A DNA stretch of 48,615 nucleotides from an uncultured Candidatus Peribacteria bacterium (GTDB taxonomy: Bacteria > Patescibacteriota > Gracilibacteria > UBA4473), in NCBI GenBank assembly GCA_964459435.1, contig CAYWLU010000001.1, positions 11,151-59,765 of the forward strand, given 5' to 3'. The position numbers and the translations under genes are program-made. Under the pieces are notes generated by a model. The model searched no databases, had not been told where the DNA came from, and saw nothing but the letters and a program-made list of their open reading frames with translations. Below are positions 1 through 47,943 of the stretch, one piece after another. Within the stretch, counting starts at the first letter, position 1, and every line of letters begins with the position of its first letter.

Positions 1-780
1 AGACTTGTAAAATCTTTAAATGATCCCAGTGAAGGTCTAGCTGGAAAATATGATATTTATCAAGAAGCACTATTAAAACATACTGATCATTTCAAAGGAA
101 CTAAAGAATGCCCTGATACAGTTGATGACTATAGTGTGTATGGTTTTTCAGATATTATTGCCTGTGAAGAAAAAATACATAATGTCCAAACAGAACTGGC
201 AAAAAAAGTAGACGATCGAAAAGATGAATTTAATGGAACTGATGATGAATTAAAAGAAGTTATTGAAAACACAAAAGCAACTATAGGTTCTATTGAAAGT
301 ATAATTCAAAAATGTAAAGAATGGATAGAATATGGTGATCAAACATTAAACCATTGGTGCGGAACTCCTCTTTCTGGAAAAGAATACGGAGGCGTTGGCA
401 AAATTTTTCGTGCCCAAGAGCAAATCGTCAATGATCGCACTCTAGCTTATTTAGGTTCTCGAACTTCGCATTTTGATACTGATGTTCTTAGTGTCGGTAA
501 TGAAAAATTACTTAATTTATTTATAGGCACAAATGAGGACACAATTGAACACAATGTTTTACATAAAACTATAAAAATCATGGCACAGGCTTTAGGTACT
601 TTTGCAGTGCTAATCTTGATTGTTGGTGGACTACTAATGATTACCTCTCAAGGAGATGAAAATCGTCTTCAAAAAGGAAAAAATATTCTTTTTTACACTA
701 TTCTTGGACTAATTATGGCTTTTACCGCCTACATACTAGTTCAATTTGTTATTTCTATTTTGTTTACAGCCACCGGATAA
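1..780 (+). CDS. VirB2/TrbC-like pilin-domain membrane protein (5' end outside window)
   Basis: Frame 1 is open from nt 1 to the listed GTG at 136, so the ORF is cut by the window edge. A long acidic N-terminal part is followed by two C-terminal hydrophobic helices joined by a short charged loop (LLMITSQGDENRLQKGKNILFYTILGL). The same tail occurs in ORFs 782-1543, 7221-7667, 7667-8371 and 8371-8772. Confidence 0.55.
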   Translation, partial: RLVKSLNDPSEGLAGKYDIYQEALLKHTDHFKGTKECPDTVDDYSVYGFSDIIACEEKIHNVQTELAKKVDDRKDEFNGTDDELKEVIENTKATIGSIESIIQKCKEWIEYGDQTLNHWCGTPLSGKEYGGVGKIFRAQEQIVNDRTLAYLGSRTSHFDTDVLSVGNEKLLNLFIGTNEDTIEHNVLHKTIKIMAQALGTFAVLILIVGGLLMITSQGDENRLQKGKNILFYTILGLIMAFTAYILVQFVISILFTATG

Positions 781-781
781 A

Positions 782-1543
782 ATGAAAAAATTATTTCTAG
801 TTTTTACTTTATTCTTCCTTCTCAACGGAAATTTAACCTTCGCTGAATCACCACAAGACCCTTGTGGCGAAGGAGTTGATTGTTATCGAATAGAATTACG
901 AGAATCCTTAATACCAGATAAAAACCCAACAACTGGTCGAACGGGTGACATAATAACTGGTCGAACGGGTATGGAACTCACTAAAAATTACATTACCCTA
1001 ATTTATACATACGGAGCATCTCTAATTGGAATTATTTGTGTGCTCTTAATTGTTTTTTCGGGAATACAAATCATTACGGGAGGTGCTGATGCCGAAAATG
1101 TCACTCAAGCAAAAACTAGAATCTTCAATTCCCTACTTAGCTTAGTTCTGCTTTTTATGTCTGCCATGATTTTAAAAAGTATTAACCCGGGATTTTTTAG
1201 ACATGGAAGAGATTCTTCTAATATTATCATCGGTCTTGATGGCGAAGCAATACCCATCGCTCCTTTGTGTAAATTCGCTGAAATAATACCTCCTAGTTGT
1301 TATACGAATGGAAAACGCGCAGATAACTGCAAGGCAGAAGGTACAGACCTCTGTATTGCTCTGAATCAAGACGAAGAAAAAACAAATTGTGTTAAAATTT
1401 TACAAGGTTTGCTTTCTGGTGCTGGTTCTTTTAATGAAATAGACGCATGTAACGGATTAACAAATTTTGAAGATGGAGCCTATGGGGACTGTACTTTCGC
1501 TGCTTTTACAGCATGGGAAACAAAATACTGTGACACAAAATAA
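782..1543 (+). CDS. Pilin-like membrane protein with signal peptide and Cys-rich C-terminal extension
   Basis: ATG at 782 (MKKLFLVFTLFFLL, signal-peptide-like) lies 1 nt after the upstream stop; the listed 746 start only adds an overlap. Central helix-loop-helix (IICVLLIVFSGIQIITGGADAENVTQAKTRIFNSLLSLVLLF) resembles the neighbouring pilin paralogs. It is followed by a roughly 110-aa tail with 8 Cys. Confidence 0.5.
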   Translation: MKKLFLVFTLFFLLNGNLTFAESPQDPCGEGVDCYRIELRESLIPDKNPTTGRTGDIITGRTGMELTKNYITLIYTYGASLIGIICVLLIVFSGIQIITGGADAENVTQAKTRIFNSLLSLVLLFMSAMILKSINPGFFRHGRDSSNIIIGLDGEAIPIAPLCKFAEIIPPSCYTNGKRADNCKAEGTDLCIALNQDEEKTNCVKILQGLLSGAGSFNEIDACNGLTNFEDGAYGDCTFAAFTAWETKYCDTK

Positions 1544-1580
1544 CTTCTCAACTAAAATTTGACACTTCTCTACCCCCCCT

Positions 1581-1666
1581 GTCATTGCGAGCGACTGTAG
1601 GGAGCGTGGCAATCTCCTAATCATAAAGATAAGATTGCTTCGGTCGTTGCACTCTCTCGCAATGAC
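1581..1666. repeat. Family A hairpin repeat (GTCATTGCGAG ... CTCGCAATGAC outer stem, GCAATCT/AGATTGC inner stem)
   Basis: 11-nt terminal inverted repeats at 1581-1591 and 1656-1666 with an inner palindrome. The whole element is the reverse complement of the copy at 8846-8931. It is flanked by a 16-nt direct repeat, AAAATTTGACACTTCT, at 1554-1569 and 1696-1711. Confidence 0.8.
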
Positions 1667-1819
1667 AATGCTGAGGGTATAAAAAGTTACATGAATAAAA
1701 TTTGACACTTCTGGAAAAAAAAGTAGTGTTTATTCGCTTTTTTCTGCGTGTTTAGGGATGAAGTGTACGATTCAGTAGCTCTCCTAGTTACCTCCTAACC
1801 GTGATTAATATCCAATAAC

Positions 1820-2490: not shown

Positions 2491-4332
2491 TCACTCCCAT
2501 TCAATTGTTCCGGGAGGTTTACTAGTCACATCTAAGAATACTGCTGATACTTTTCCTTCTTGCAAGATACCAGAAGCAACTTTAGCAAAAAATCTCCAAG
2601 GGAGTTTCCCAACACTAGCAGACATTGCATCAATAGAATCTATCGGACGAAGAATAATTGATTCTTCTCCTGTTTGATTAAAAGACACAGGAATCAAAAC
2701 AGTCGGAAACTGCCATACTTTTTCATAAAGATTCATTTCTAATAAAGTCCGATTCACAATATCATCTGCCGTCTGCAAAAGCTTAACCCTATCTTTGGTA
2801 ATACTCTTTTTGTGTAGTTGTACTTCCCTAATTTCTCCTAAGAAGTTTTTATCTAAAAGCACCAATCCCCTATTAATCTCAGAATAATGATTAATTAAAT
2901 TAGTCGCATGCTTCTCTAATACTTTGAGTTCGAACTCCGCAGAGTTCGAACTCTTAATTCCCGTTAAAATTGCCGGATGACGATATGTCCTAAAATCCCC
3001 CTGCACTCCAACGGACTTAATCGGGAGCACAATAAATGGCTTCTTATTCGTCTGAAGTGTAAAAGAATTAATCTTTCCTAATTCCTTATTTGAAGATTGA
3101 AGTTTGAAGATTGAAGATTCATTTGAGCAAAGGATTCTTACTCCTAGACCTGGACCAGGAAAGGGATGTCTCCAAACAAGATTGTGTGGCAATCCCAAAA
3201 GCTCACCCAGAGCTCTCACTTCGTCCTTATACAGTTCTTTTATTGGTTCTATAATCTTTCCCTCATCTATTAATTTCTGAACCGCAGGGGCTCGATTATG
3301 ATGTGTTTTAATCTTATCGGCATGAGCAGTTCCCCCAGTTTCTATAGTATCTGGATAAATAGTTCCTTGGGCTAGCAACCAATCCTCATGTAAATCATGT
3401 TTCGTAAAAAAATCCTGCTGAACATCTAAAAAAGTATGACCGATTATTTCTCGTTTTTTTTCTGGATCATAAATATTTTCTAGATTAGCTAAAAATCGTT
3501 CTCCTTCGCTAAGAACTGTCAGGTCTGCACCCAGTGCTTTTATTTCTTTCTCCACAAACTCTACTTCCCCTTTTCTCATAAGTCCGATATCTACAAAAAG
3601 ACCCTTAACTCGCTCTGCTCCTAAAATCTCGGTCAAAAGCATAAAACTAACCGTAGAATCTACCCCCCCAGAAACAAAAAGAAAAACATTTTTATCGCCT
3701 ACTTGCTCTTTTATTTTCTTTTTTTCTCCTTCCAAAAATTTCTCCATCGTCCAGTCCCGAGCCACCCCACAAATATCTAGGAAATTTTCAAAAACTTTAG
3801 TCCCAAATTCTGAATGAGTTACTTCTAAATGAAACTGGGTAGAGAAAATATTCTTCTCTGGATGACATAAGGATGCATGCGTACAACAATCTGTTGTTGC
3901 ACAATTAATAAATCCCTCAGCCGGTTCTCCCACTTCATCGACATGATTCATCCAGAAAATAGATTTTTCTGGTACATCCTTAAACAAAGGACATTCTTTG
4001 TTATGAGTTACTTCTGCTCGACCAAATTCCCCTTTCTTTCCTGGAAGAACCTTTCCTCCTAAGGAATGAGTAATGAACTGATGACCATAACAAATACCAA
4101 GGATAGGAAGACCTAAGTCAAAAACAGCTAAATCGCATTTGGGAGAATTCTCTTCAAAAACACTCTGAGGACCTCCAGACATAATAATTCCCTTGATGCT
4201 TTCATCCTTGAATTGCTCTATTGGTGTAGAAATATCCCAAATCTCAGCCAAGACATTCTGCCGTCTAATGCGATTAGCAATGAGATGGGCGTATTGTCCG
4301 CCAAAATCGAGAATGATGATTTTTTCGTGCAT
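2491..4332 (-). CDS. guaA: GMP synthase (glutamine-hydrolysing), long C-terminal form
   Basis: N-terminal class-I amidotransferase (IIILDFGGQYAHLIANRIR, GICYGHQ), PP-loop SGGVDS, and C-terminal ..KPPGTIEWE. The ATG at 4332 (MHEKIIILDFGGQY) is preferred over the listed TTG at 4356. Confidence 0.93.
   Translation of the reverse strand: MHEKIIILDFGGQYAHLIANRIRRQNVLAEIWDISTPIEQFKDESIKGIIMSGGPQSVFEENSPKCDLAVFDLGLPILGICYGHQFITHSLGGKVLPGKKGEFGRAEVTHNKECPLFKDVPEKSIFWMNHVDEVGEPAEGFINCATTDCCTHASLCHPEKNIFSTQFHLEVTHSEFGTKVFENFLDICGVARDWTMEKFLEGEKKKIKEQVGDKNVFLFVSGGVDSTVSFMLLTEILGAERVKGLFVDIGLMRKGEVEFVEKEIKALGADLTVLSEGERFLANLENIYDPEKKREIIGHTFLDVQQDFFTKHDLHEDWLLAQGTIYPDTIETGGTAHADKIKTHHNRAPAVQKLIDEGKIIEPIKELYKDEVRALGELLGLPHNLVWRHPFPGPGLGVRILCSNESSIFKLQSSNKELGKINSFTLQTNKKPFIVLPIKSVGVQGDFRTYRHPAILTGIKSSNSAEFELKVLEKHATNLINHYSEINRGLVLLDKNFLGEIREVQLHKKSITKDRVKLLQTADDIVNRTLLEMNLYEKVWQFPTVLIPVSFNQTGEESIILRPIDSIDAMSASVGKLPWRFFAKVASGILQEGKVSAVFLDVTSKPPGTIEWE
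3089..3120. repeat. TTGAAGA-type heptamer tract inside guaA
   Basis: tttgaagattgaagtttgaagattgaagattc on the plus strand. It is read on the stop-free minus strand as ..SSIFKLQSSNKE.. within guaA. Confidence 0.8.
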
Positions 4333-4347
4333 TATAAAAAAATTATA

Positions 4348-4372
4348 AATCTTCAATCTTCAATCTTCAATT
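4348..4372 (-). repeat. TTGAAGA heptamer array between the ribD stop and the guaA start
   Basis: Plus strand aatcttcaatcttcaatcttcaatt; minus strand AATTGAAGATTGAAGATTGAAGATT, 16 nt upstream of the guaA ATG. Confidence 0.85.
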
Positions 4373-4394
4373 AAAAATGAATAAAACCTAAATC

Positions 4395-5435
4395 CTAAAA
4401 TTTAAATCTCATCAGCACATCACCTTCTAAGTTCTCAACTTCACAGAGTTTGAACTTTTTAAAGTTCGAACTCAAATCTGTGGTAAAACTATTTTTTCCA
4501 ATTCCAAAAATCTCTGACGCTATAAAAAGTTGAATCTCGTCCACTAAATCTTGTTTCAGAAGTTCGGTACAAACCTCTGCTCCACATTCGGTCATAATAG
4601 AATCTATTCCTTTCTTCCCGCATTCTTGTAAAACTTCTTCTAAATTATGAGTTTCAAAGAAATGAATCTTCCTGTCTGGAATACTAAAAATCTTAGCTGT
4701 TTTTGGTATTTCTCTTTTTCCTATCACAATTAAATCGGGATTAGAAGAACCATCTAATCTACAATCTAGTCTAGGATCGTCCTGGAGGATTGTTTCTGTA
4801 GTTGTTAATATTGCAGAGTAATTAGCCCTCATTTCGTGCACTTTCTTTCTAGAAAGCTCATTAGAAATATATTCAATCCCGGGTTCAAAATTTCCAGAAC
4901 CCGGGATCTGCTTTGTTATTTTCCCATCTAAACTCTGGGCTAGTTTAAGTGTTACATATGGTAAACCAGTAGTAACAAACTTCTCTAAAAAAGGATTAAG
5001 TGAGTTACATTTTTCGTTACTTTGTACTTCAACTTCTATTCCTGCTTTCCGTATCTTCTCTAAATTCTCCCCCTTGAATCTCGGATCTAAACTACCAACT
5101 ATTACTTTCTGTGGTCTTTTTTGGATAAGTAAATCTGTGCAACTAGGAGTTTTTTTACCAGAAAACACATCACAAGGTTCTAGGGTTATATACACTTCAC
5201 AATCGCTTAAATTATAATTTTCCCCAAGTTTTTCTATAGCTTCTCTTTCAGCATGTAAACCACCAAATTTTCTATGAACTCCCTCTGAAATAATTTCTTT
5301 CTTTAAAGATTGAAGATTGTAGTTTGAAGATCGTAGTTTAACTATTACACATGCCACTCTAGGATTAGGAGAAACTGCATGAGGATCTACCTGTTCAGCA
5401 AGTTCTATCGCTAATTTCATAAAATCAATTTTCAT
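4395..5435 (-). CDS. ribD: Bifunctional riboflavin biosynthesis protein RibD (deaminase/reductase)
   Basis: Deaminase motifs HAEREAI and TLEPC, then a reductase domain (VTLKLAQSLDGKIT...). It carries two repeat-derived in-frame inserts (see repeats 4878-4905 and 5307-5339). Confidence 0.9.
   Translation of the reverse strand: MKIDFMKLAIELAEQVDPHAVSPNPRVACVIVKLRSSNYNLQSLKKEIISEGVHRKFGGLHAEREAIEKLGENYNLSDCEVYITLEPCDVFSGKKTPSCTDLLIQKRPQKVIVGSLDPRFKGENLEKIRKAGIEVEVQSNEKCNSLNPFLEKFVTTGLPYVTLKLAQSLDGKITKQIPGSGNFEPGIEYISNELSRKKVHEMRANYSAILTTTETILQDDPRLDCRLDGSSNPDLIVIGKREIPKTAKIFSIPDRKIHFFETHNLEEVLQECGKKGIDSIMTECGAEVCTELLKQDLVDEIQLFIASEIFGIGKNSFTTDLSSNFKKFKLCEVENLEGDVLMRFKF
4878..4905. repeat. Family D palindromic element CCCGGGTTCAAAATTTCCAGAACCCGGG, in frame in ribD
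   Basis: 9-bp stem and 10-nt loop, with 28/28 identity to 5728-5755. Translated as PGSGNFEPG in ribD. Confidence 0.9.
5307..5339. repeat. Heptamer tract (TTGAAGA / TTTGTAG types) inside ribD
   Basis: agattgaagattgtagtttgaagatcgtagttt, read on the minus strand as ..LRSSNYNLQSLK.. between the conserved CVIVK and EGVH...HAE segments of the deaminase domain. Confidence 0.8.
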
Positions 5436-5456
5436 TTCTTTTTAAAATTTAAAAAA

Positions 5457-5544
5457 TGTCATACCAGATTTATTCTGGCATCTAACCATAAATAAAGCAG
5501 ATGTTTAATCCATCGCTAGATCCCGCAATAAATGCGGGATGACA
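5457..5544 (+). repeat. Family B double-hairpin repeat (TGTCATACC... / ...GATCCCGCAATAAATGCGGGATGACA)
   Basis: Outer TGTCAT/ATGACA ends, with hairpins CCAGA-tttat-TCTGG and ATCCCGC-aataaat-GCGGGAT. Other copies lie at 13125-13214 and 25018-25205. Confidence 0.8.
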
Positions 5545-5553
5545 TCGTTTTTT

Positions 5554-5592
5554 TTCATTCTTCATTATTCATTACTCATTATTCATTACTCA
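5554..5592 (-). repeat. Tandem heptamer array TAATGA(A/G) beginning at the ribE stop codon
   Basis: Minus strand reads TGA(stop)G TAATGAA TAATGAG TAATGAA TAATGAA GAATGAA. Confidence 0.85.
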
Positions 5593-6198
5593 ATGCTGAA
5601 CATTGAGTATATATTTTCCTAAAATATCAAATTCTAAGTTAACCAAATCTCCAATCTTTTTGTCAGATAAATTAGTTACTTCCCAAGTATGAGAAATGAT
5701 ACAAGTTTCAAACCAATTTTCATTTAACCCGGGTTCAAAATTTCCAGAACCCGGGTTAAAAATATTAGAAACTGTTAAAGAAATTCCATTTACTGCGATA
5801 GAACCTTTTTCCACAACTAACTTGGCATTTTCTTTACTGAGAGAAATTCTAAACAACCAATAATCTCCTTGTCTTTTTAAATCTAAAATCTTTCCTTTCT
5901 CGTCTATATGACCAGTGACAAAATGACCAGAATTCCGTTCTCCTGTTCTAGCAGATCTTTCTAAATTAACACTGTCTCCTTCTTTTGCTTCCCCGAAAGT
6001 TGTCCTATTCCTCGACTCTTCCATAATCTCCACCTTGAACCAATCTTTGTCCATCTCGACAACCGTTGCGCACATCCCAGAAAGAGCAATCGATTCTCCC
6101 AACCCCAGAGGATCCGTTATATTATAATATAATACAGTAAACAAATTCCCTTTGATTTTCTTTATTTCGCCAGTTGTTTCTACAATTCCAGTAAACAT
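5590..6198 (-). CDS. ribE: Riboflavin synthase (alpha chain)
   Basis: MFTGIVETTGEIKKI start and a duplicated barrel pattern (..GESIALSGMCATVV.., ..GSIAVNGISLTVS..). It carries the family D palindrome in frame. Confidence 0.9.
   Translation of the reverse strand: MFTGIVETTGEIKKIKGNLFTVLYYNITDPLGLGESIALSGMCATVVEMDKDWFKVEIMEESRNRTTFGEAKEGDSVNLERSARTGERNSGHFVTGHIDEKGKILDLKRQGDYWLFRISLSKENAKLVVEKGSIAVNGISLTVSNIFNPGSGNFEPGLNENWFETCIISHTWEVTNLSDKKIGDLVNLEFDILGKYILNVQH
5728..5755. repeat. Family D palindromic element, in frame in ribE
   Basis: Identical 28-mer to 4878-4905, translated in the same frame as PGSGNFEPG. The palindrome extends to ttaaCCCGGG...CCCGGGttaa (5724-5759). Confidence 0.9.
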
Positions 6199-6210
6199 GT
6201 AAATGAATTA

Positions 6211-6237
6211 TCAATTATCAATCTTCAAACTACAAAT
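6211..6237 (-). repeat. Heptamer tract (TTGAAGA/TTTGTAG types) just upstream of the ribE start
   Basis: Plus strand tcaattatcaatcttcaaactacaaat; minus strand atttgtagtttgaagattgataattga. Confidence 0.7.
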
Positions 6238-6256
6238 AAAAAACATACATATCACA

Positions 6257-6464
6257 GTCATTCTGGCTTGTCCAGAATCCTGACTAGTAAATATCCTATA
6301 TGAAAACGTTAGTGCTTATCTCGACATCAGTACCACGCTAACGCTTATGAGCATGATAAATTCGCTTCTGATTCTGCTCGTTGAGGATAGCGAACTGTTC
6401 CGAGCTTGCTCGAGAACAAGTAAGCGACGCAAATGATAAGCGAAGCGTCACAAGCCGGAATGAC
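6257..6464 (-). mobile_element. MITE-like element with about 15-nt terminal inverted repeats (GTCATTCYGGCTTGT), carrying a family C core
   Basis: Left end gtcattctggcttgtcc. The right end, reverse-complemented, is gtcattccggcttgtgacgc. The internal about 80 nt, reverse-complemented, closely matches 25035-25115. No coding capacity. Confidence 0.6.
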
Positions 6465-6539
6465 TAAAAGATTGATACCTTTTTGAATTGCCAAAATTAA
6501 TCAATTTTTGTAACGTACCCTCGTAATTTCCCTTTAAGT

Positions 6540-7184: not shown

Positions 7185-7192
7185 CCATCCTT

Positions 7193-7218
7193 AATTGAAG
7201 ATTGAAAATTGAAGATTG
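7193..7218 (+). repeat. TTGAAGA heptamer array abutting the stop of ORF 7221-7667
   Basis: aattgaagattgaaaattgaagattg. Confidence 0.85.
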
Positions 7219-7220
7219 TT

Positions 7221-7667
7221 TCATCCTCCCGCATAAGAAGAAGCAATAATTGTTTTTACTAACACATAAGAACCAACAATTACAACAAGTCCTACAAGTG
7301 ACCAAATCAGTCCTTTTTTAGCATTAGCTATTTTATCAGATTCTCCAACAGCCGTTATCAAGGTAAAGCAATTCAGTACTATAAAAAGTACTGCCAACGC
7401 TGCCGCAACTCCCGTCAATCCATTACCAAATTTCTGCATAATATTTGTTATATCGGTTACATCACCAGTAAGTTTGTTTATTTCAGCATTTGGGCTTCCA
7501 TCAATCGTTATTCCTGGTAAATGAGCTGGTCTAGTTTTTGATTCCGCGGGAAGAAGTTTATTAATAGCATCATTTAAATCATACGGTGGAATATCCTTTT
7601 CTTCTGCAAAAACCACCCCACTAAGGCTAAAAAATAATATAAAACTAAAAATAAATATTTTTTTCAT
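7221..7667 (-). CDS. VirB2/TrbC-like pilin-domain protein
   Basis: Signal peptide MKKIFIFSFILFFSLSGVVFA, then two C-terminal TM helices with the loop AVGESDKIANAKKG. Confidence 0.6.
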   Translation of the reverse strand: MKKIFIFSFILFFSLSGVVFAEEKDIPPYDLNDAINKLLPAESKTRPAHLPGITIDGSPNAEINKLTGDVTDITNIMQKFGNGLTGVAAALAVLFIVLNCFTLITAVGESDKIANAKKGLIWSLVGLVVIVGSYVLVKTIIASSYAGG

Positions 7668-8371
7668 TAGGTTGCAAGGAAGAAATAAAGAGCTTTCATT
7701 AGAGAATAACTAACGACTATAAATATTACTCCCAGCAAAGCATACATAAAGAATGTTTTAGATTTTTCAAGATCCTCGTCATTTCCAGAAGCATAAATCA
7801 ATCTAATTCCAGAAAAAATAAACATGATCATTACGATAGGGGCAACAAATTTCAGTAAAATATCAATTATCCGTGGAATATATTGTAGCCCAAATTTCTG
7901 ATCCCCAGCATAACCAATCACTCCCGCTGGTTGAACATTTTTTTCTGCAACTCTGAGAGCGTCTATTGTTGCTGAAATTTCTTTTTCTTTGTCTCCAATT
8001 TCTTTATTTTTGTTCCATATTTTTTCATCAATTTTCTTTATTTCATCCTCTATCGTAAAATATTCTATATCCATTGAATCTATAGAATCTTCATCAGGAA
8101 CTGAAGGAAGTCCTAATCGTAATCTTTCTCCTATAGAAACGCCTAATTCCGTATTCTTATTTGTCAGCTCCTTTTCAAATCCAGGCAGCTCATCTTCTAA
8201 ATCTTTTAATTCTTCTTTCATAGTTTTAGTAGCCCCATCTATTTCTGTTTGGATAGTATCTGCCCCCCACCAAGAAGGGAAAAGAACTTTTTCCATACCT
8301 TCATTAAGACCTTGAGCAGAGACTATTCCACTTATAAGGATCAACCCAATTCCTAAAAATACTTTTTTCAT
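7667..8371 (-). CDS. VirB2/TrbC-like pilin-domain protein with a long coiled-coil ectodomain
   Basis: Signal peptide MKKVFLGIGLILISGIVSA, C-terminal TM-loop-TM (..IFSGIRLIYASGNDEDLEKSKTFFMYALLGV..). Its stop and start overlap the neighbouring genes by 1 nt, which suggests one operon. Confidence 0.55.
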   Translation of the reverse strand: MKKVFLGIGLILISGIVSAQGLNEGMEKVLFPSWWGADTIQTEIDGATKTMKEELKDLEDELPGFEKELTNKNTELGVSIGERLRLGLPSVPDEDSIDSMDIEYFTIEDEIKKIDEKIWNKNKEIGDKEKEISATIDALRVAEKNVQPAGVIGYAGDQKFGLQYIPRIIDILLKFVAPIVMIMFIFSGIRLIYASGNDEDLEKSKTFFMYALLGVIFIVVSYSLMKALYFFLAT

Positions 8372-8772
8372 TACCCAGAAAAATTAATACCAATAATAAA
8401 TCTCACAACAGCTACCGCTAAAATCGCAATAGTTGCTCCCACTGCCGTCCAAAAAATAATGTCCTTCGCTTTCTGTTTCATTTCCGATTCTCCAGAACTA
8501 ATTACAAGATAAACTCCAGCAACAATAATCATCCCTACACAAATTGCTAAAAAAATCATTAAGAGTCTATTAGTAACTCCCGGAATTAAATTTTTTACCA
8601 CATATTCCTGTCCACTAGCACCTTCTATTCGTCCTGTAACTTTATTAACCTCTCCCCCCGTACTAATTGCTGGACCTGGAAGAACTCCGCCATGAAACAC
8701 TGGAGGAACTCCAGAAGCTAATACTCCTTCCAAAGAAAGAAATAAACTTAAAATAAAAATTAATTTTTTCAT
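8371..8772 (-). CDS. VirB2/TrbC-like pilin-domain protein
   Basis: ATG at 8772 (MKKLIFILSLFLSLEGVLA) is preferred. C-terminal TM-loop-TM (..VYLVISSGESEMKQKAKDIIFWTAVG..). Confidence 0.6.
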   Translation of the reverse strand: MKKLIFILSLFLSLEGVLASGVPPVFHGGVLPGPAISTGGEVNKVTGRIEGASGQEYVVKNLIPGVTNRLLMIFLAICVGMIIVAGVYLVISSGESEMKQKAKDIIFWTAVGATIAILAVAVVRFIIGINFSG

Positions 8773-8845
8773 ATATATCAATAATACACCAAGTTAATAC
8801 TAAAGGTTAAAAATAAAATTTAAAAGTTTTCATGCCCCCAGTATT

Positions 8846-8931
8846 GTCATTGCGAGAGAGTGAAACAATCGAAGCAATCTCATAATCTCAAGCAAGAGAT
8901 TGCCACGCTCCCTATAGTCGCTCGCAATGAC
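8846..8931. repeat. Family A hairpin repeat (reverse orientation of 1581-1666)
   Basis: GTCATTGCGAG at 8846-8856 and CTCGCAATGAC at 8921-8931. The right half, gagattgccacgctccctatagtcgctcgcaatgac, is the reverse complement of the left half of copy 1581-1666. Confidence 0.8.
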
Positions 8932-8965
8932 AGCTTTGTAAAAAGCTATAAATTTGCAATAAATA

Positions 8966-8994
8966 TTGAAAAAGTCTCATATTTATGCTATAAT
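8966..8994 (+). promoter_or_regulatory. Sigma70-type promoter for pilT (TTGAAA, 17 nt, TGcTATAAT)
   Basis: TTGAAA at 8966-8971, a 17-nt spacer, and an extended -10 TGC+TATAAT at 8986-8994. The predicted TSS near 9001 would give a leader of about 15 nt with no Shine-Dalgarno. Confidence 0.55.
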
Positions 8995-9016
8995 AAAAAG
9001 ATAATCTCAACTTAAA

Positions 9017-10201
9017 ATGCCAGAAGAGAAAAAACCTATTCAACAAACTACTACTCCACTAGGAACTACTGTTCCTGAAGACAAACCTATTGTTGGTGCT
9101 AATATACCTAATCTAGTTAACAAGGAAGTCTCCGAAGGATTTAAAACCATCTATCACTCCGACTCCAATGTTACTGGACATATTGCCAAACTTTTACTCA
9201 AATTAGTTCAAGCTGGAGCATCAGATGTTTTCTTATCTTCTGGGTCTCTTCCTGCTTGTCAAATAGACGGAACAACTGCTTTTATCGAAGGAGAAGAAAT
9301 AGTAAAAACAGAAAAACTTTTAGAAGTCTTGAGTGATTATGACCAAAAAAAATTACTAGAAAATCTTGGACAGGATTTTGGGGTATCCATTGAGGGAGGT
9401 TATCGCTTCCGAGCAAATGCTTTTTTACAAAAAAATGGACTCTCTATTGCTTTCCGAGTAATTCCTTCCAAAATTCCAAGTTTTGAAGAACGAGGTTTAC
9501 CAGAACAATTAAAACGAATTGTAGATATGGATTCTGGATTAGTAATTGTAACTGGATCAACTGGATCTGGTAAATCATCTACACTAGCGACTATTGTGGA
9601 TCTTATTAATGAAAATCACCAAAAACATATTATTACTATTGAAGACCCCATTGAGTTTATCCATCACAATAAAAAATCGCTAATAGAGCAACGGGAAGTT
9701 GGTTTACATGCTAAAAGTTTTGACCGAGCGCTCCGTTCTGCTTTGAGAGAAGCACCAGATGTAATTCTTGTCGGAGAATTGCGAGATCTAGAAACAACAG
9801 CTCTGGCTCTTACTGCCGCGGAGACTGGATCACTTGTTCTCGCTACCTTACATGCCAATAGTGCTCCAAGCGCTGTAACTCGTATGATAGATATCTTTCC
9901 GAATGCTCAACAAAATCAAATTCGCAGTCAATTAGCCCAATCATTACAAGCCATTATTTGGCAAACTCTAATACCTAATAAGTCAGGCACGGGACGATCT
10001 TGTGTATTTGAAGTTATGTTCCGAAACTATGCGGTTAGTACTATGATTCGAGATAATAAAGTTTATCAGCTAAAATCTGTTATTGAAACTAGTAAAAAAG
10101 CTGGCATGATTCCCGTAAAAGATTGTTTAGAAGAGTTAGTTAAACAAGATAAAATAGAAATAGAAATCGCTCAAAATATTTTGAATAACCATGTATCGTA
10201 A
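9017..10201 (+). CDS. pilT: Type IV pilus retraction ATPase PilT-like
   Basis: Walker A GSTGSGKSST, Asp box IITIEDPIEF, Walker B DVILVGELRD, His box TGSLVLATLHANSA. It has an N-terminal extension of about 50 aa. Confidence 0.85.
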   Translation: MPEEKKPIQQTTTPLGTTVPEDKPIVGANIPNLVNKEVSEGFKTIYHSDSNVTGHIAKLLLKLVQAGASDVFLSSGSLPACQIDGTTAFIEGEEIVKTEKLLEVLSDYDQKKLLENLGQDFGVSIEGGYRFRANAFLQKNGLSIAFRVIPSKIPSFEERGLPEQLKRIVDMDSGLVIVTGSTGSGKSSTLATIVDLINENHQKHIITIEDPIEFIHHNKKSLIEQREVGLHAKSFDRALRSALREAPDVILVGELRDLETTALALTAAETGSLVLATLHANSAPSAVTRMIDIFPNAQQNQIRSQLAQSLQAIIWQTLIPNKSGTGRSCVFEVMFRNYAVSTMIRDNKVYQLKSVIETSKKAGMIPVKDCLEELVKQDKIEIEIAQNILNNHVS

Positions 10202-10269: not shown

Positions 10270-10280
10270 ATACTCAACCT

Positions 10281-10313
10281 TAATTGAAGATTGAAGATTG
10301 ATAATTGAAGATT
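10281..10313 (+). repeat. TTGAAGA heptamer array abutting the stop of the LCP gene
   Basis: aattgaagattgaagattgataattgaagattt. Confidence 0.85.
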
Positions 10314-11706: not shown

Positions 11707-11803
11707 GTCATTGCGAGTTCGCCATACTTGCCTACCTTGGTGGGGCGAACATGGCAATCTCTTCTTTATGATTATGAGATTGCTTCGCTTTGCTCGCAAT
11801 GAC
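11707..11803. repeat. Family A hairpin repeat overlapping the 5' end of the MurL-like gene
   Basis: GTCATTGCGAG at 11707-11717 and CTCGCAATGAC at 11793-11803. The ATG at 11799 lies inside the right arm. Confidence 0.8.
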
Positions 11804-13178
11804 AACATATGTATTATTCACATTGATGACTCCTATTTACCAAACTTTTATTTTTGAAGATTTTTCTTTTGATCAAGAGAATAAAAAATTAATTCTGAAA
11901 TACTCTCTAGATGAAGAATTGTTTTTCACAGAAGAAGTAATTTTTGATTTTAAGTTTATAGAAAATATTAATAAAAAAGCCCTCCAAAATGCTTTATTTG
12001 GTGTTTGGGTTATGCTTGGAATCTCTTATTTCAAAACTTTTCTTCCTCCTGAGATTAAATTCAAAAAATATGGACTCACTTCTGATCAAGCAAAATTCTT
12101 CCAAAAAACTTGGGAAAAGGGTCTAGGAGAATTCTTTTACCAAAATAAAATCTCCCCAAAAGGAAAAATAAACTTTTCAAGTGATGAAAAATCCGCATTA
12201 ACAAATTCTGTCTCCTTAGCTGTCTCAGGCTCTATTATGCCTCTGGGAGGAGGTAAAGATTCTTTAGTAACCGCCGAAATCTTAAAAGAAAACAATGAAG
12301 ATTTTTCCACTTGGACAGTAGGAGAGTTTCCTTTTCTACAAAATATGGTTGATAAACTAGAAGTTCCACATTTAATGGTTAAGCGTCATATAGATCTAAA
12401 ACTTCTAGATTTAAATAAAAATGGTGCCCTAAATGGACATGTTCCTATTTCGGCTATATTAGCTTTCCTAGGAGTAACAAGTGCTATTCTTACAGGCAAA
12501 AAAAACATCATTCTCTCTAATGAGAATTCTGCGAGTGAACCAACAGTAGAAGATATTAATCATCAGTATTCTAAATCTTTGGAATTCGAAAAAGATTTTC
12601 AAGAATATGTAAAAAGTTTTATCTCACCAGACCTAAATTATTTTTCTTTTCTCCGTCCCCTATCAGAACTAAAAATCGCTCAAATCTTTTGTGAAAAATG
12701 TTTAGATAAATATGAAAAAGACTTTTCTTCCTGTAATCGCAATTTTAAAATCAAAAATCAAAAATCAAAAAATCTAACTTGGTGCGGAGAATGTCCTAAA
12801 TGTGCTTTTGTATTTGCAATCTTTGCCCCGTTTCTAGAAAGAGACAAACTTCTAGCTCTTTTTGGCAAAAATCTTTTTGCAGATAATAATTTAGACCAAA
12901 CTTTTCGAGAACTTCTAGGACTAGAAAAAACGAAACCCTTTGAATGTGTTGGAGAAATAGAAGAAGTAAGAAAGGCTTTAGAAATGTCTAAAGATAAATG
13001 GCCAGAATTATCTAAATTTGATTTCCCTAAACCTAATTTTGATCTAGAAGAACTTAATCCGCATTTGATGCCAGAAAGGTTTGAAAAAATATTTAACCTT
13101 CACATATCCAATATTACAAATATCTGTCATACCGGATTTATTCCGGTATCTAGTCATAAAAATAATGCAAATAATTAA
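11799..13178 (+). CDS. PP-loop (GGGKDS) protein, probable MurL-type UDP-MurNAc-L-Ala-L-Glu epimerase
   Basis: ATP-pyrophosphatase-like motif PLGGGKDSLV and a C-terminal CGECPKC motif. About 460 aa, lying directly upstream of and in the same orientation as a MurD2-like ligase. Start is uncertain (ATG 11799 inside a repeat, or ATG 11826). The last roughly 17 codons come from repeat 13125-13214. Confidence 0.55.
   Translation: MTTYVLFTLMTPIYQTFIFEDFSFDQENKKLILKYSLDEELFFTEEVIFDFKFIENINKKALQNALFGVWVMLGISYFKTFLPPEIKFKKYGLTSDQAKFFQKTWEKGLGEFFYQNKISPKGKINFSSDEKSALTNSVSLAVSGSIMPLGGGKDSLVTAEILKENNEDFSTWTVGEFPFLQNMVDKLEVPHLMVKRHIDLKLLDLNKNGALNGHVPISAILAFLGVTSAILTGKKNIILSNENSASEPTVEDINHQYSKSLEFEKDFQEYVKSFISPDLNYFSFLRPLSELKIAQIFCEKCLDKYEKDFSSCNRNFKIKNQKSKNLTWCGECPKCAFVFAIFAPFLERDKLLALFGKNLFADNNLDQTFRELLGLEKTKPFECVGEIEEVRKALEMSKDKWPELSKFDFPKPNFDLEELNPHLMPERFEKIFNLHISNITNICHTGFIPVSSHKNNANN
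12747..12774 (+). repeat. AAAATCA heptamer tract inside the MurL-like CDS
   Basis: aaaatca aaaatca aaaatca aaaaatc, translated as ..FKIKNQKSKN.. just before the CGECPKC motif. Confidence 0.75.
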
Positions 13179-13214
13179 TTCACAGCTAGATCCCGCAATA
13201 AATGCGGGATGACA
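13125..13214 (+). repeat. Family B double-hairpin repeat spanning the 3' end of the MurL-like CDS
   Basis: tgtcataccggatttattccggtatcta...gctagatcccgcaataaatgcgggatgaca. It encodes the terminal CHTGFIPVSSHKNNANN plus the stop. Confidence 0.8.
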
Positions 13215-18037: not shown

Positions 18038-18313
18038 ATGACATCACTTCTCCAGATCCGCATCGATAAACAGAAAAAAGAGCAAGCTCAAGAAATTTTT
18101 AAAAACTTGGGAATGAGCTTAACAACTGGTATTAACATCTTTCTCTCTGCTGTATTAAGAGAAAGAGGGATTCCCTTTCAACTGTATGAAGACGAAAGTA
18201 ATAAAACTTTAAGTAAAGAAACCTTAAAAAAACTAAAACAAGGATATGAGGATATTGAAAAAGGAGATGTATACACTCTAGAAGAAGTTAAATCCCATCT
18301 TGGTCTACAATGA
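18038..18313 (+). CDS. RelB/DinJ-family antitoxin
   Basis: LQIRIDKQKKEQAQEIFKNLGMSLTTGINIFLSAV..GIPF is a ribbon-helix-helix DinJ/RelB-like N-terminus. It overlaps the toxin gene by 4 nt. Confidence 0.8.
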   Translation: MTSLLQIRIDKQKKEQAQEIFKNLGMSLTTGINIFLSAVLRERGIPFQLYEDESNKTLSKETLKKLKQGYEDIEKGDVYTLEEVKSHLGLQ

Positions 18314-25017: not shown

Positions 25018-25205
25018 TGTCATACCGGACTTGTTGACGCTTCGCTTGTCGTCTGCGTCGTTCACTTGCTTATGAGCAAGCTCAACGCAGTTCGCCATCC
25101 TCGACGAGCGATATCTAACCATAAAAACAAATGATTCATATTAAAAGTGTAAAATAAGCAAGTTATTAATTCACAGCCAGATCCCGCAATAAATGCGGGA
25201 TGACA
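25018..25205 (+). repeat. Family B repeat with a nested family C insert
   Basis: The ends match 5457-5544 and 13125-13214. The first hairpin is interrupted after taccgga by about 85 nt (25030-25115) that match the reverse complement of the 6257-6464 interior. Confidence 0.75.
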
Positions 25206-29202: not shown

Positions 29203-29300
29203 GGAAATATTTTAGAAGTAGTAATCCGACAAATAGAAAAGCAACCAAAACATCTTTACCGTTTTATTTATAAAGGAATTACTCCAACTGTAATTAATTT
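29203..29300 (+). repeat. Second copy of the 98-nt 3' segment of pseudogene 28035-28458
   Basis: By eye about 87 percent identical to 28353-28450 (GNILEVVIRQIEKQPKHLY(S/R)FIYKG...). The RhuM gene on the opposite strand terminates inside it. Confidence 0.8.
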
Positions 29301-30305
29301 TGATTTCTTTATTTTTGCTTCTATTTGTTTTAATTCTTTCATGTCTTGAATATCTGCAAGTTCTGCATCAGACTTTTTTCTTTTGGCATCAAATTTATCG
29401 TATATTCCATCTACTTTTCCTTTCATTTCCTTATTTGAAACACTTCCTTTGTGATCGAGTAATTTTTTCTTGTTCAACTCAATAATAAGATCAATATTCT
29501 CTTTCCAAAATAAAATAGTAATATCTTTTTCGTCTTTTACTCTAAGTTCAGCCGTTTCTAAAAATACGGTTACAAAACGATTTAAACTATCTAGCTCATC
29601 TGCTGTTAAATAGTTTTTAGAAATATAAATATCTTGTTTTCTTACAATGCTTCCTTTCCAACTAGTAAGTGCCATATTCCTTTCATTCTCGTTTGCACGA
29701 TTTACGATAATTTCTGCTGCAGTATTTCCAGTAATGGCATACAGAATTTTATTCTGAGCTTCTGCGAAAAACATTTGAGTAGCTTTGTCTGTAGAATCAT
29801 AATCACTACTCAACGAAAGTAATTCTCGAACTTTTTGATAAAACCTTTTTTCAGAGGCACGAATATCACGAATTTGTGCCAACAATTCATCAAAATAACT
29901 TGATCTTCCGTCAGGATTTTTTAGTCGTTCACTATCAATAACAAACCCTTTTATCATGTATTCTTTCAAATTCTGATTTGCCCATTGTCGGAATTGAATA
30001 CCTCTTTTACTTCTTACCCTAAAACCAATTGCTAAAATCATTTCCAATGAGTAAAAAGTGACTTCATATTTTTTCCCATCAGAGGCAGTTGTCAAGTAAT
30101 CCTTTACAACTGCCTCTTCGCTTAACTCTCCCTCTTTTAGGATGTTTATAGTGTGTAAACTGATGTTTTGTTTCGAGGTATCAAAAAGTTCAGCAAGTTG
30201 ATTTTGATTCATCCAAATATTCCCATCTTTGGCATAGAGGGAAACAGACGCTTTTCCATCTGAGGTATTGTAGATGATAATATTTTGTTGTGGGTCTTGA
30301 GTCAT
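29268..30305 (-). CDS. RhuM-family protein
   Basis: ..NQNQLAELFDTSKQNISLHTINILKEGEL...YSLEMILAIGFRVRSKRGIQFRQWANQNLKEYMIKGF...RASEKRFYQKV.. is the pattern I recognise as the RhuM (virulence-protein-like) family. It is the only clearly intact larger gene in this patch. Confidence 0.8.
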   Translation of the reverse strand: MTQDPQQNIIIYNTSDGKASVSLYAKDGNIWMNQNQLAELFDTSKQNISLHTINILKEGELSEEAVVKDYLTTASDGKKYEVTFYSLEMILAIGFRVRSKRGIQFRQWANQNLKEYMIKGFVIDSERLKNPDGRSSYFDELLAQIRDIRASEKRFYQKVRELLSLSSDYDSTDKATQMFFAEAQNKILYAITGNTAAEIIVNRANENERNMALTSWKGSIVRKQDIYISKNYLTADELDSLNRFVTVFLETAELRVKDEKDITILFWKENIDLIIELNKKKLLDHKGSVSNKEMKGKVDGIYDKFDAKRKKSDAELADIQDMKELKQIEAKIKKSKLITVGVIPL

Positions 30306-31476: not shown

Positions 31477-31594
31477 GTCGTCGCTAGGTGACTTCATTGC
31501 TTTCGTGAATTGCTCCGCAATTAACTCAGCTTATTCCGTCACCGCTCCTCTTCGCTCAAATGGAGATTCTCGAACTCATTATGCCCTTTTTAAA
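31477..31594 (-). ncRNA. Candidate structured GC-rich leader upstream of tRNA-Ala (homologous to the tRNA-Arg leader)
   Basis: The minus strand ends ..GGTGAC..(hairpin AATTGC-gga-GCAATT)..GTCACC-TAGCGACGAC, directly 5' of tRNA position +1. It aligns with 40823-40916. Confidence 0.3.
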
Positions 31595-31623
31595 CCCGGG
31601 TTCAAAATTTCCTAGAACCCGGG
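31595..31623. repeat. Family D palindromic element, intergenic copy (29 nt)
   Basis: CCCGGGTTCAAAATTTCCtAGAACCCGGG is the ribD/ribE 28-mer with one extra T in the loop. Confidence 0.85.
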
Positions 31624-31720
31624 TTAGAAAAGGGATTATTCGTTCTCAACTACCCCATTTTCGCGGGAACAAAAAACAGGAATACTTTAAAAAATTTTCA
31701 AAAAATGTAAACTCCTTCTG

Positions 31721-45185: not shown

Positions 45186-45197
45186 ATATTATAATAT
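45186..45197. repeat. All-AT palindrome ATATTATAATAT overlapping the comEC start codon
   Basis: tATATTATAATATg; the comEC ATG is at 45196-45198. Confidence 0.8.
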
Positions 45198-47891: not shown

Positions 47892-47911
47892 ACTTAGCTT
47901 TAGAAATTTAT

Positions 47912-47943
47912 AATTGAAGATTGTAGATTGAAGATTGAAGATT
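47912..47943 (+). repeat. TTGAAGA heptamer array abutting the stop of ORF 47946-48326
   Basis: aattgaagattgtagattgaagattgaagatt. Confidence 0.85.

What the first reader, a model, noticed from the sequence alone, without database searches (positions are those of the whole stretch)
4878..5755. Identical 28-nt CCCGGG-capped hairpin lies in frame inside both ribD and ribE (RPE-like coding-region palindrome)
Seen: CCCGGGTTCAAAATTTCCAGAACCCGGG (9-bp stem, 10-nt loop) occurs with 28/28 identity at 4878-4905 in ribD and 5728-5755 in ribE. Both genes are on the minus strand and both read the element in the same frame as PGSGNFEPG (ribD ..KQIPGSGNFEPGIEY.., ribE ..IFNPGSGNFEPGLNE..). From memory of canonical RibD (..SLDGRTAMASGESQWIT..) and RibE (..SLTV, short turn, IPHT..), these are loop positions and this organism has about 9-10 extra residues there. 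Identical DNA in two unrelated proteins points to recent insertion of a repeat rather than protein homology. Five of the six frames of the element are stop-free, which would make coding insertions tolerable. Established: Rickettsia palindromic elements are the classic example of palindromic repeats inserted in frame in ORFs. I do not know of an equivalent description for this type of genome.
Basis: partly seen in the sequence, partly recalled or inferred. Interest (0 to 1): 0.8.

Follow-up and report, generated by a model that had tools for sequence, protein, structure and literature searches.

The report
Mobile 28-base palindrome inside enzyme genes
Two riboflavin-synthesis genes of an uncultured Peregrinibacteria-type (candidate phyla radiation) bacterium each carry a recently acquired, identical 28-base palindromic repeat that is read in frame as a 10-12-residue surface loop, which extends the Rickettsia-style "coding palindrome" phenomenon to a new lineage with an unusually tiny element.

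Summary
CCCGGGTTCAAAATTTCCAGAACCCGGG occurs 28/28 identical at 4878-4905 (ribD) and 5728-5755 (ribE), both read as PGSGNFEPG. None is expected by chance.

It belongs to a repeat family:
- A third, 29-nt copy is intergenic (31595-31623).
- Fourteen metagenome stretches carry the same loop variant, almost all intergenic with a roughly 19-bp stem.
- Other Peregrinibacteria/Peribacteria contigs carry same-stem copies inside ribD, a ValRS-like ORF, a nucleotidyltransferase and a glycosyltransferase.

The closest relatives (about 85-91% nt identity in the flanks) have empty sites: +30 nt in ribD, +36 nt in ribE. In rough NJ trees the query nests among empty-site orthologs, so these look like recent gains. 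Independent assemblies reproduce the insert. AlphaFold places both inserts in lower-confidence loops between strands.

The same three RibD/RibE loops carry this element in separate clades, once in the opposite orientation. They also carry a second 28-nt palindrome (GAGTTCGAACTC-N4-GAGTTCGAACTC). This points to recurrent colonisation of permissive loops.

No transposase was found, and the GTAG/CGTC tags of classical REPs are absent, so the mobilisation mechanism is unknown.

Verdict: a real, RPE/intragenic-REP-like element, a new variant of a known kind, of moderate interest.

The parts
4876..4907 (.). Palindromic element copy 1 inside ribD. The core 28-mer is 4878-4905. The perfect hairpin ATCCCGGGTTC-N10-GAACCCGGGAT has an 11-bp stem. 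On the minus (coding) strand it reads I-PGSGNFEPG-I.
   Evidence: net +30 nt versus the empty sites of L001/L002
5723..5760 (.). Palindromic element copy 2 inside ribE. The core 28-mer is 5728-5755. The perfect hairpin TTTAACCCGGGTTC-N10-GAACCCGGGTTAAA has a 14-bp stem. It reads F-N-PGSGNFEPG-L.
   Evidence: net +36 nt versus the empty sites of L001/L002
31584..31634 (.). Copy 3, intergenic. The 29-nt core (31595-31623, extra T giving CCTAGAA) sits in a longer imperfect hairpin CCCTTTTTAAA-core-TTAGAAAAGGG. It lies within a ~190-nt module found 5' of three different tRNA genes.
   Evidence: -31.8 kcal/mol, z = -7.1
4395..5435 (-). ribD (deaminase/reductase), host gene of copy 1. The insert is residues 177-186, between predicted strands 171-176 and 183-185.
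5590..6198 (-). ribE (riboflavin synthase), host gene of copy 2. The insert lies in loop 147-160, between predicted strands 139-146 and 161-168.
2926..2953 (.). Second, unrelated 28-nt coding palindrome, GAGTTCGAACTC-CGCA-GAGTTCGAACTC, inside guaA (reads SSNSAEFEL). The identical 28-mer occupies the RibD loop (site B) in relative L140.

Best explanation
The two 28-mers are copies of a very short, non-autonomous palindromic repeat. The conserved unit is A-N-CCCGGGTTC / 10-11-nt loop / GAACCCGGG-N'-T. The family is endemic to a Peregrinibacteria/Peribacteria clade of the candidate phyla radiation. Copies are spread around the genome: a long-armed 29-nt subfamily sits in gene gaps, and a short 28-nt form sits inside genes.

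In this lineage one copy landed in ribD and one in ribE after the split from its nearest sampled relatives. They persist for three reasons. The net insertion is a multiple of three (30 and 36 nt). The 28-mer is stop-free in 5 of 6 frames. Both sites are turns between beta-strands, where a Pro/Gly-capped 10-12-residue excursion is tolerated. The element is therefore simply translated, and the enzymes probably remain functional.

Shown: family membership, the empty sites in relatives, loop placement, and recurrent occupation of the same loops in other lineages. Inferred: that copying is an active transposition-like or templated-repair process acting on the hairpin. The enzyme responsible is unidentified.
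For: - Identity and significance.
- Family: a third copy in the window. 14 metagenome stretches carry the same loop variant, 12 from metagenome Ga0307992 and 2 from FLOH01, the genome of L002. Two Ga0307992 contigs are 99.9% identical to the window.
- Same 9-bp arms with other loops in Peribacteria/Peregrinibacteria loci L003, L006, L029, L113 and L139. Most lie inside long ORFs, including ribD, a ValRS-like ORF, a Pol-beta NTase and a GT1, and use all three frame types.
- Empty sites: L001 and L002 are 85-91% identical to the window in the flanks and lack both inserts. blastn HSPs break at the elements.
- Polarity: in NJ trees the query RibE is sister to empty P0002, with empty P0003, P0004 and P0012 outside. 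RibD shows the same pattern.
- Not an artefact: ENA ERZ27316756 (99.6% over 6.2 kb) and Logan SRR8862237 (100%) carry the same insert.
- Loop placement: there is a 12-residue gap against the three solved riboflavin synthase sequences whose alignments were printed. AF2 puts the RibE insert in loop 147-160 (block pLDDT 58) and the RibD insert at residues 177-186 (pLDDT 70-72, against >90 around it).
- Recurrence: CCCGGG-type inserts are in 3 separate RibD clades at site B and at a second RibD loop. The L139 copy has different boundaries. The degenerate RibE copies in L141 and L142 are in the opposite orientation to the query. A different 28-nt palindrome occupies the same three loops in other lineages.
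- All 22 distinct copies extend the palindrome by at least 2 bp, with compensatory variation at the first flanking pair.
Against: - No transposase, RAYT or IS was detected among the 37 window ORFs scanned against Pfam (ribD, ribE and guaA were identified separately), nor in the precomputed Pfam gene tables of L002, L003 and L139. Mobility is therefore inferred only from distribution.
- No consistent target-site duplication: AT|AT in ribD could be a 2-bp TSD, but ribE shows none.
- The loop codons flanking the inserts differ from those of the empty sites more than the rest of the gene does, so exact insertion boundaries cannot be fixed.
- Query and L003 share the same nucleotide position and similar flanks at ribD site B. 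In RibE the right-hand boundary (3 codons before Trp) is the same in four lineages. This could mean shared ancestry plus conversion rather than independent hits.
- The region is a recombination mosaic, so gene trees are imperfect guides.
- The NJ trees are rough, with no support values.
- Translation of the insert and enzyme activity are untested.
Confidence: 0.75

Rival explanations
1. Ancient insertion with concerted evolution. The element entered these RibD/RibE loops in an early Peregrinibacteria ancestor. It was lost in L001, L002 and others. In the query it is kept identical to other genomic copies by gene conversion primed on the identical arms, which could also flip the loop orientation.
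For: The same loops are occupied in distant orthologs. Query and L003 share the same nucleotide position and similar flanks (..AT|core|ATTGA..) at ribD site B. The right boundary in RibE is constant in four lineages. Loops are genome-specific while arms are invariant. Recombination mosaics occur in this region.
Against: The query is nested among empty-site orthologs in both genes, so this model needs at least 2-3 precise in-frame losses per gene against one gain. Deletion between the CCCGGG or TTAA direct repeats would remove 22 or 32 nt and shift the frame (sequence). L139 has different boundaries, and a completely different palindrome sits in the same loops in other lineages. That shows independent colonisation does occur.
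Confidence: 0.13
2. Functional cis-element. The hairpin, made of two AACCCGGGTT palindromes about two helical turns apart, is a protein-binding operator or an RNA stability/attenuation signal. The copies in ribE and ribD regulate the rib operon.
For: The hairpins are very stable. Two identical copies lie 850 nt apart in one operon. Intergenic copies sit mostly at gene 3' ends or gaps, like REPs. One copy is embedded at a fixed position in a module conserved upstream of three tRNA genes. The loop sequence is conserved between genomes about 12% diverged.
Against: The closest relatives have the same operon without the element. Copies occur in unrelated genes, in all frames and both orientations. 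Old copies decay by point mutation in the arms while the peptide is kept. There is no T-run, so it is not an intrinsic terminator. No Rfam family matches.
Confidence: 0.08
3. Conserved protein motif. PGSxxxEPG is a functional peptide selected at the protein level in RibD and RibE.
For: Similar peptides are at the same loops in several orthologs.
Against: The nearest orthologs lack it. The DNA is identical across two unrelated proteins and an intergenic site. Arm codons are identical at synonymous positions between the query's copies and L003's ribD copies, in genomes only about 55% identical in protein. The same DNA is read in other frames elsewhere, as RVQNFQNPG and PGFKTSPNPG.
Confidence: 0.02
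4. Assembly or chimera artefact introducing a repeat into the contig.
For: Short repeats can mislead assemblers. The source is a metagenome-assembled contig.
Against: Three independent assemblies (the window, ENA k141_476019, and Logan SRR8862237) give the same sequence. Both ORFs stay intact and in frame.
Confidence: 0.01

Closest known systems
Rickettsia palindromic elements (RPEs; summarised in PMC10969869 and PMC3733652)
   Same: Both are dispersed palindromic repeats found in intergenic DNA and inserted in frame into unrelated housekeeping genes. Both are translated as extra peptide segments compatible with the fold. For both, the mobilising enzyme is unknown.
   Different: RPEs are about 100-150 bp and end in CGTC (PMC3733652). 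Here the unit is 28-38 nt, has no CGTC or GTAG tag, encodes only about 10-12 residues, and occurs in a CPR lineage. No sequence relationship was tested or is expected.
REPs (repetitive extragenic palindromes), including intragenic REPs (Di Nocera et al. 2013, PMC3733652)
   Same: Size is 20-40 nt with a G+C-rich stem-loop and many copies. Copies lie predominantly downstream of genes, with some inside genes. That paper notes different REPs at about the same site of recB in two Xanthomonas species, which parallels the recurrent loop occupation seen here.
   Different: There is no GTAG or CGTC terminal tetranucleotide and no RAYT was found. The arms are perfect and built from a 6-bp restriction-like palindrome (CCCGGG). 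The genic copies are a distinct 28-nt form.
MITEs
   Same: Both are non-autonomous, have terminal inverted repeats, are presence/absence polymorphic between close relatives, and occasionally form in-frame fusions (PMC10969869).
   Different: This element is far shorter than the 70-300 bp given for MITEs in PMC3733652. The whole element is the inverted repeat. No consistent TSD and no parent IS were identified.
Mobile G+C-rich palindromic clusters of yeast and fungal mitochondrial genomes, and the translationally bypassed 'byp' inserts of Magnusiomyces (from memory, not checked here)
   Same: Both are very short G+C-rich hairpins invading A+T-rich genomes, including coding regions.
   Different: Those are organellar. 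Byps interrupt the frame and are bypassed, whereas here the insert is in frame and stop-free, so plain translation suffices.

Membership tests
RPE-like coding palindromes (functional class) | Repeated palindromic DNA present at several unrelated loci of one genome | tested here: met
   There are 3 copies in the window. 14 metagenome stretches carry the same loop variant, two of them 99.9% identical to the window.
RPE-like coding palindromes (functional class) | Inserted in frame in ORFs whose close orthologs lack the segment | tested here: met
   ribD has +30 nt and ribE +36 nt versus L001/L002. The ORFs are intact.
RPE-like coding palindromes (functional class) | The insert lies at the protein surface or in a loop, compatible with the fold | tested here: met
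   Prediction only. The AF2 loops have reduced pLDDT, and there is a gap at a hairpin turn against the solved riboflavin synthase sequences whose alignments were printed.
RPE families proper (Rickettsia RPE-1..10) | About 100-150 bp length, a CGTC end tag and Rickettsia sequence families | tested here: not met
   The element is 28-38 nt with no CGTC (sequence). The host is Peregrinibacteria-like.
REP / REPtron | A 20-40 nt imperfect palindrome in high copy number, mainly extragenic | tested here: inconclusive
   Size and hairpin fit. The 29-nt subfamily is intergenic (12 of 12 distinct copies). The 28-nt form is genic. Genome-wide copy number is unknown because only contigs are available.
REP / REPtron | A conserved GTAG (or CGTC) tetranucleotide at one end | tested here: not met
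   The ends are A-N-CCCGGGTTC, or TAATTTCTAA-CCCGGG in the long form.
REP / REPtron | An associated RAYT (IS200/IS605-type Y1 transposase) gene | tested here: inconclusive
   None was found among the 37 window ORFs scanned against Pfam, nor in the precomputed Pfam gene tables of L002, L003 and L139. The rest of the genome was not available.
MITE | Terminal inverted repeats plus a fixed-length target-site duplication | tested here: inconclusive
   AT|AT in ribD could be a 2-bp TSD. ribE and the intergenic copies show palindromic flanks rather than direct-repeat flanks.
MITE | A cognate full-length IS with matching TIRs | not testable with these tools
   This needs the complete genome. No IS was seen in the sequence held.
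Intrinsic terminator | A G+C-rich hairpin followed by a T-run | tested here: not met
   The flanks are TTAGAAATT, ATCTGC or TTAAAAATA, with no consistent T-run.
DNA uptake sequence | A short motif highly over-represented as single copies throughout the genome | tested here: not met
   6 of 7 CCCGGG sites in the window belong to the three hairpins. The single solo site (1186) is a point-mutational variant of CCGGGA in L002.

The most novel reading that the evidence does not exclude
Peregrinibacteria harbour several families of ultra-short (28-32 nt) perfect palindromes, each built from two copies of a 10-12-nt restriction-site-like palindrome (AACCCGGGTT; GAGTTCGAACTC). Under this reading they are inserted by a so-far-unknown, transposase-independent or structure-directed mechanism. 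They hit the same nucleotide positions of the same protein loops repeatedly, bring along or create complementary flanks, and so act as a general engine of loop expansion in CPR proteomes.
Probability: 0.2. Interest if true: 0.75.

Novelty: new variant of a known kind. Interest (0 to 1): 0.52.

Why it matters
- CPR bacteria have small genomes and are usually described as poor in mobile DNA. This window shows several palindromic repeat families that differ in presence or absence between relatives about 10% diverged, and that enter essential biosynthetic genes.
- It gives a concrete DNA-level source for the many lineage-specific insertions seen in CPR proteins.
- It provides a natural experiment on which enzyme loops tolerate 10-12-residue insertions.
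- It poses a tractable mechanistic question: what copies a 28-nt hairpin when no RAYT or IS is evident?
- Practically, such inserts can distort ortholog alignments and HMM scores, and they can serve as fine-scale strain markers.

Tried and rejected
- The genome-contig scan with CCCGGGTTC-N(4-24)-GAACCCGGG was too generic. Only 3 Peribacteria loci (L006, L029, L113) were useful.
- I tested whether the segment between the two copies (4905-5728) is a foreign cassette bounded by the repeats. Sliding identity against L001/L002 shows a patchwork mosaic over the whole ribE-ribD region, not a block bounded by the elements. Rejected.
- I tested whether the solo CCCGGG at 1186 is an excision footprint. 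The L002 ortholog has CCGGGA at that spot, so it is a point difference. Rejected.
- tRNA T-arm origin (GGTTCAAAT-like): the stem partner does not fit, and no tRNA or Rfam hit covers the element. Rejected.
- Transposase next to repeat clusters: the ORF flanked by copies in L132 looks, from reading its sequence, like a membrane sugar transferase (not scanned against Pfam) rather than a transposase.
- Viral origin: there are 0 matches in IMG/VR.
- Literature: no paper in the held library links Peregrinibacteria or CPR with coding palindromic repeats.
- Exact insertion boundaries and TSD could not be settled, because the loop codons next to the inserts are too diverged from the empty sites.
Full report
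**Observation**

The 28-mer CCCGGGTTCAAAATTTCCAGAACCCGGG is at 4878-4905 and 5728-5755 with no mismatch. No dinucleotide-preserving shuffle of the window produced a match, even with 3 mismatches allowed.

Both copies lie in minus-strand ORFs:
- 4395-5435 is a bifunctional RibD, with PDB hits down to 2.5e-43.
- 5590-6198 is riboflavin synthase, with PDB hits down to 1.3e-35.

Both are read in the same frame as PGSGNFEPG. The perfect palindrome is longer than the shared 28 nt: an 11-bp stem in ribD and a 14-bp stem in ribE. As RNA the hairpins fold at -21.5 and -23.2 kcal/mol, z about -4.7. The 28-mer is open in 5 of 6 frames. A third copy with one extra base (CCTAGAA) is at 31595-31623, in intergenic DNA between tRNA-Ala and ruvA.

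**It is an insertion, and a recent one**

The window comes from a Peregrinibacteria/Peribacteria-type CPR bacterium with 34% G+C. The taxonomic placement rests on the source names of homologs and the record titles of related loci.

Two syntenic relatives are 85-91% identical in nucleotide sequence over the flanking genes: L001 (a JGI contig) and L002 (GCA_900089805.1). Both have short loops at both sites:
- In ribD, ACA-(12 nt)-TAT replaces ACA-AAGCAGAT-[28]-ATTGAA-TAT, a net +30 nt.
- In ribE, a 5-codon turn (KVDKE) replaces 17 codons, a net +36 nt.

In NJ trees built on gap-masked alignments, the query RibE is sister to empty P0002, with empty P0003, P0004 and P0012 outside. The RibD tree shows the same nesting. 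One gain per gene is therefore more parsimonious than several precise in-frame losses. The trees are rough, and the region is a recombination mosaic.

The insert is not an assembly artefact. An ENA assembly (99.6% identical over 6.2 kb) and a Logan assembly of another run (100%) contain it.

**It belongs to a repeat family**

A metagenome scan for the window's loop variant returned 14 stretches. Twelve come from metagenome Ga0307992, two of them 99.9% identical to the window. Two come from FLOH01, the genome of L002, which has the family elsewhere although its ribD and ribE sites are empty.

All 12 distinct copies of the 29-nt form, CCCGGGTTCAAAATTTCC[T/C]AGAACCCGGG, are intergenic:
- Most carry longer arms (TAATTTCTAA...TTAGAAATTA, up to a 19-bp stem).
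- They lie mostly at gene 3' ends or in gene gaps.
- They have no T-run.

The 28-nt form occurs only inside ORFs: ribD, ribE, and a glycosyltransferase-like ORF in L134, where it is read in another frame as RVQNFQNPG.

Other Peregrinibacteria/Peribacteria contigs have the same 9-bp arms with different 10-11-nt loops, most of them inside long ORFs:
- two sites of ribD and a Pol-beta nucleotidyltransferase in L003
- ribD in L139
- a ValRS-like 1082-residue ORF in L113
- a 529-residue ORF in L006

In all 22 distinct copies the palindrome extends at least 2 bp beyond the conserved arms. The first flanking pair varies in a compensatory way (A.T in 18 copies, T.A in 3, G.C in 1), and the second is always A.T. 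The unit is therefore at least 32 nt, and pairing itself appears to be maintained.

**Effect on the proteins**

Alignment to the three solved riboflavin synthase sequences whose alignments were printed shows a 12-residue gap at a turn between two strands. AlphaFold2 models built with the ortholog alignments agree:
- The RibE insert falls in loop 147-160, between strands 139-146 and 161-168, with block pLDDT 58.
- The RibD insert (residues 177-186) falls between strands 171-176 and 183-185, with pLDDT 70-72 against more than 90 around it.

The simplest reading is that the element is translated into a Pro/Gly-capped surface excursion and the enzymes still work. This is inferred, not shown.

**Recurrent use of the same loops**

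That test is partly positive, and the details matter.

- L003 proteins are about 55-60% identical to the query's. L003 has IPGSGIPEPGI at the same ribD position. Its arms are identical to the query's, synonymous positions included, but the loop differs (TGGGATCCCT). L003 also has a degenerate copy at the ribE loop.
- L139 has a copy in the same ribD loop with different boundaries and an empty ribE site.
- L141 and L142 carry decayed copies at the ribE loop (arms CCGAGG, CCGAAG and CCTGAG). Their loops match the family in the orientation opposite to the query's copy.
- A second RibD loop, just before EIYxTLEPC, carries the element in three further orthologs.
- A second, unrelated 28-nt palindrome, GAGTTCGAACTC-N4-GAGTTCGAACTC (peptide SSNSxEFEL), occupies the same three loops in yet other lineages. 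It also sits in this window's guaA at 2926-2953.
- L140 and L001 have ribD genes 100% identical for 400 nt. They differ by the presence of that second palindrome, inside a locally divergent patch.

On the trees, both element types appear in at least three separate RibD clades. Together this supports repeated, independent colonisation of a few permissive loops, with old copies decaying by point mutation and alleles moved around by recombination.

Two things remain unexplained. The query and L003 share the same nucleotide position at ribD site B. In RibE the right-hand boundary, 3 codons before Trp, is constant in four lineages. Either there is target preference, or part of the pattern reflects an old insertion refreshed by arm-primed gene conversion. 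I give that second model about 0.13.

**Mechanism**

The distribution is what a mobile or copy-pasted element would produce: a dispersed family, genome-specific subfamilies, presence/absence between close relatives, and identical copies in unrelated contexts. The agent is unknown.
- None of the 37 window ORFs scanned against Pfam hits a transposase, nor do the precomputed Pfam gene tables of L002, L003 and L139 list one.
- The GTAG/CGTC tags that define classical REPs and RPEs are absent (PMC3733652).
- There is no consistent target-site duplication.
- There are no matches in viral contigs and no Rfam family over the element.

I therefore commit to a non-autonomous palindromic repeat, copied by a trans-acting hairpin-recognising activity or by templated repair, and filtered by selection to in-frame, stop-free loop positions. 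Confidence in the first and last parts is about 0.75. Confidence in any specific enzyme is low.

**Comparison with known systems**

Functionally this matches Rickettsia RPEs and the intragenic REPs described by Di Nocera et al. They also noted different REPs at about the same site of recB in two Xanthomonas species (PMC3733652, PMC10969869). It fails the membership tests for RPE families (size, CGTC tag, host) and for canonical REPs (terminal tag; RAYT not found). The MITE criteria are inconclusive.

I found no description of such elements in Peregrinibacteria or other CPR bacteria in the held literature. I rate it a new variant of a known kind. It is real and neat, and the multi-family, same-loop recurrence is the most interesting aspect. 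It is not a categorically new phenomenon.

Noticed in passing
window 31477-31665 (with L125:1948-2137 and L134:960-1150): A ~190-nt module is 87-95% conserved in nucleotide sequence immediately 5' of three different tRNA genes: tRNA-Ala in the window, tRNA-Phe in L125 and tRNA-Glu in L134. It contains the CCCGGG hairpin at a fixed position. It could be a shared tRNA promoter/leader or a tRNA-associated repeat.
   Followed up: partly
window 2926-2953 (guaA) and 4432-4473 (ribD C-terminus, degenerate): This is a second 28-nt coding palindrome family, GAGTTCGAACTC-N4-GAGTTCGAACTC, read as SSNSAEFEL. The identical 28-mer fills the RibD loop in relative L140, and SNS..EFE peptides occur at the same RibD/RibE loops in other orthologs.
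   Followed up: partly
window 1579-1688, 8824-8933, 2366-2396, 11775-11805: Large imperfect palindromes TGTCATTGCGAG...CTCGCAATGACA (about 90-140 nt) lie in intergenic DNA. The copies at ~1548-1690 and ~8852-8969 are absent from the syntenic positions of L002.
   Followed up: partly
window 5490-5544, 13160-13214, 25151-25205: A third intergenic repeat family ends in the hairpin GATCCCGCAATAAATGCGGGATGACA. The copy between ribD and ribE (within 5443-5526) is absent in L002.
   Followed up: no
window 3080-3119, 4341-4383, 5293-5332, 6206-6248, 7185-7224, 10274-10313, 42882-42942, 47904-47943: Tandem heptamer repeats (TTGAAGA/GATTGAA) lie just upstream of several gene starts and also inside guaA and ribD. 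In ribD they encode KLRSSNYNLQSLKKE, an 11-residue segment missing from many RibD orthologs. They may be a promoter-proximal motif that also invades genes.
   Followed up: no
window 4400-6500 versus L001/L002; L140 versus L001: There is a strong mosaic of nucleotide identity (0.6 to 1.0 in 90-150-nt windows) among closely related ribE-ribD alleles, which indicates frequent homologous recombination between lineages.
   Followed up: partly
window 136-1543 and 7221-10201: This is a cluster of T4SS-pilin-like small proteins (PF18895) with a T2SSE ATPase. A ComEC competence protein is at 45196-46677. This is the typical CPR pilus/DNA-uptake gene set.
   Followed up: no
window 29268-30305 and 18038-18313: There is a RhuM-family virulence protein (PF13310, E = 1e-101) containing a 12-bp-stem perfect hairpin at 30081-30117, and a RelB antitoxin-like ORF. 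These may be mobile or defence-related islands.
   Followed up: no
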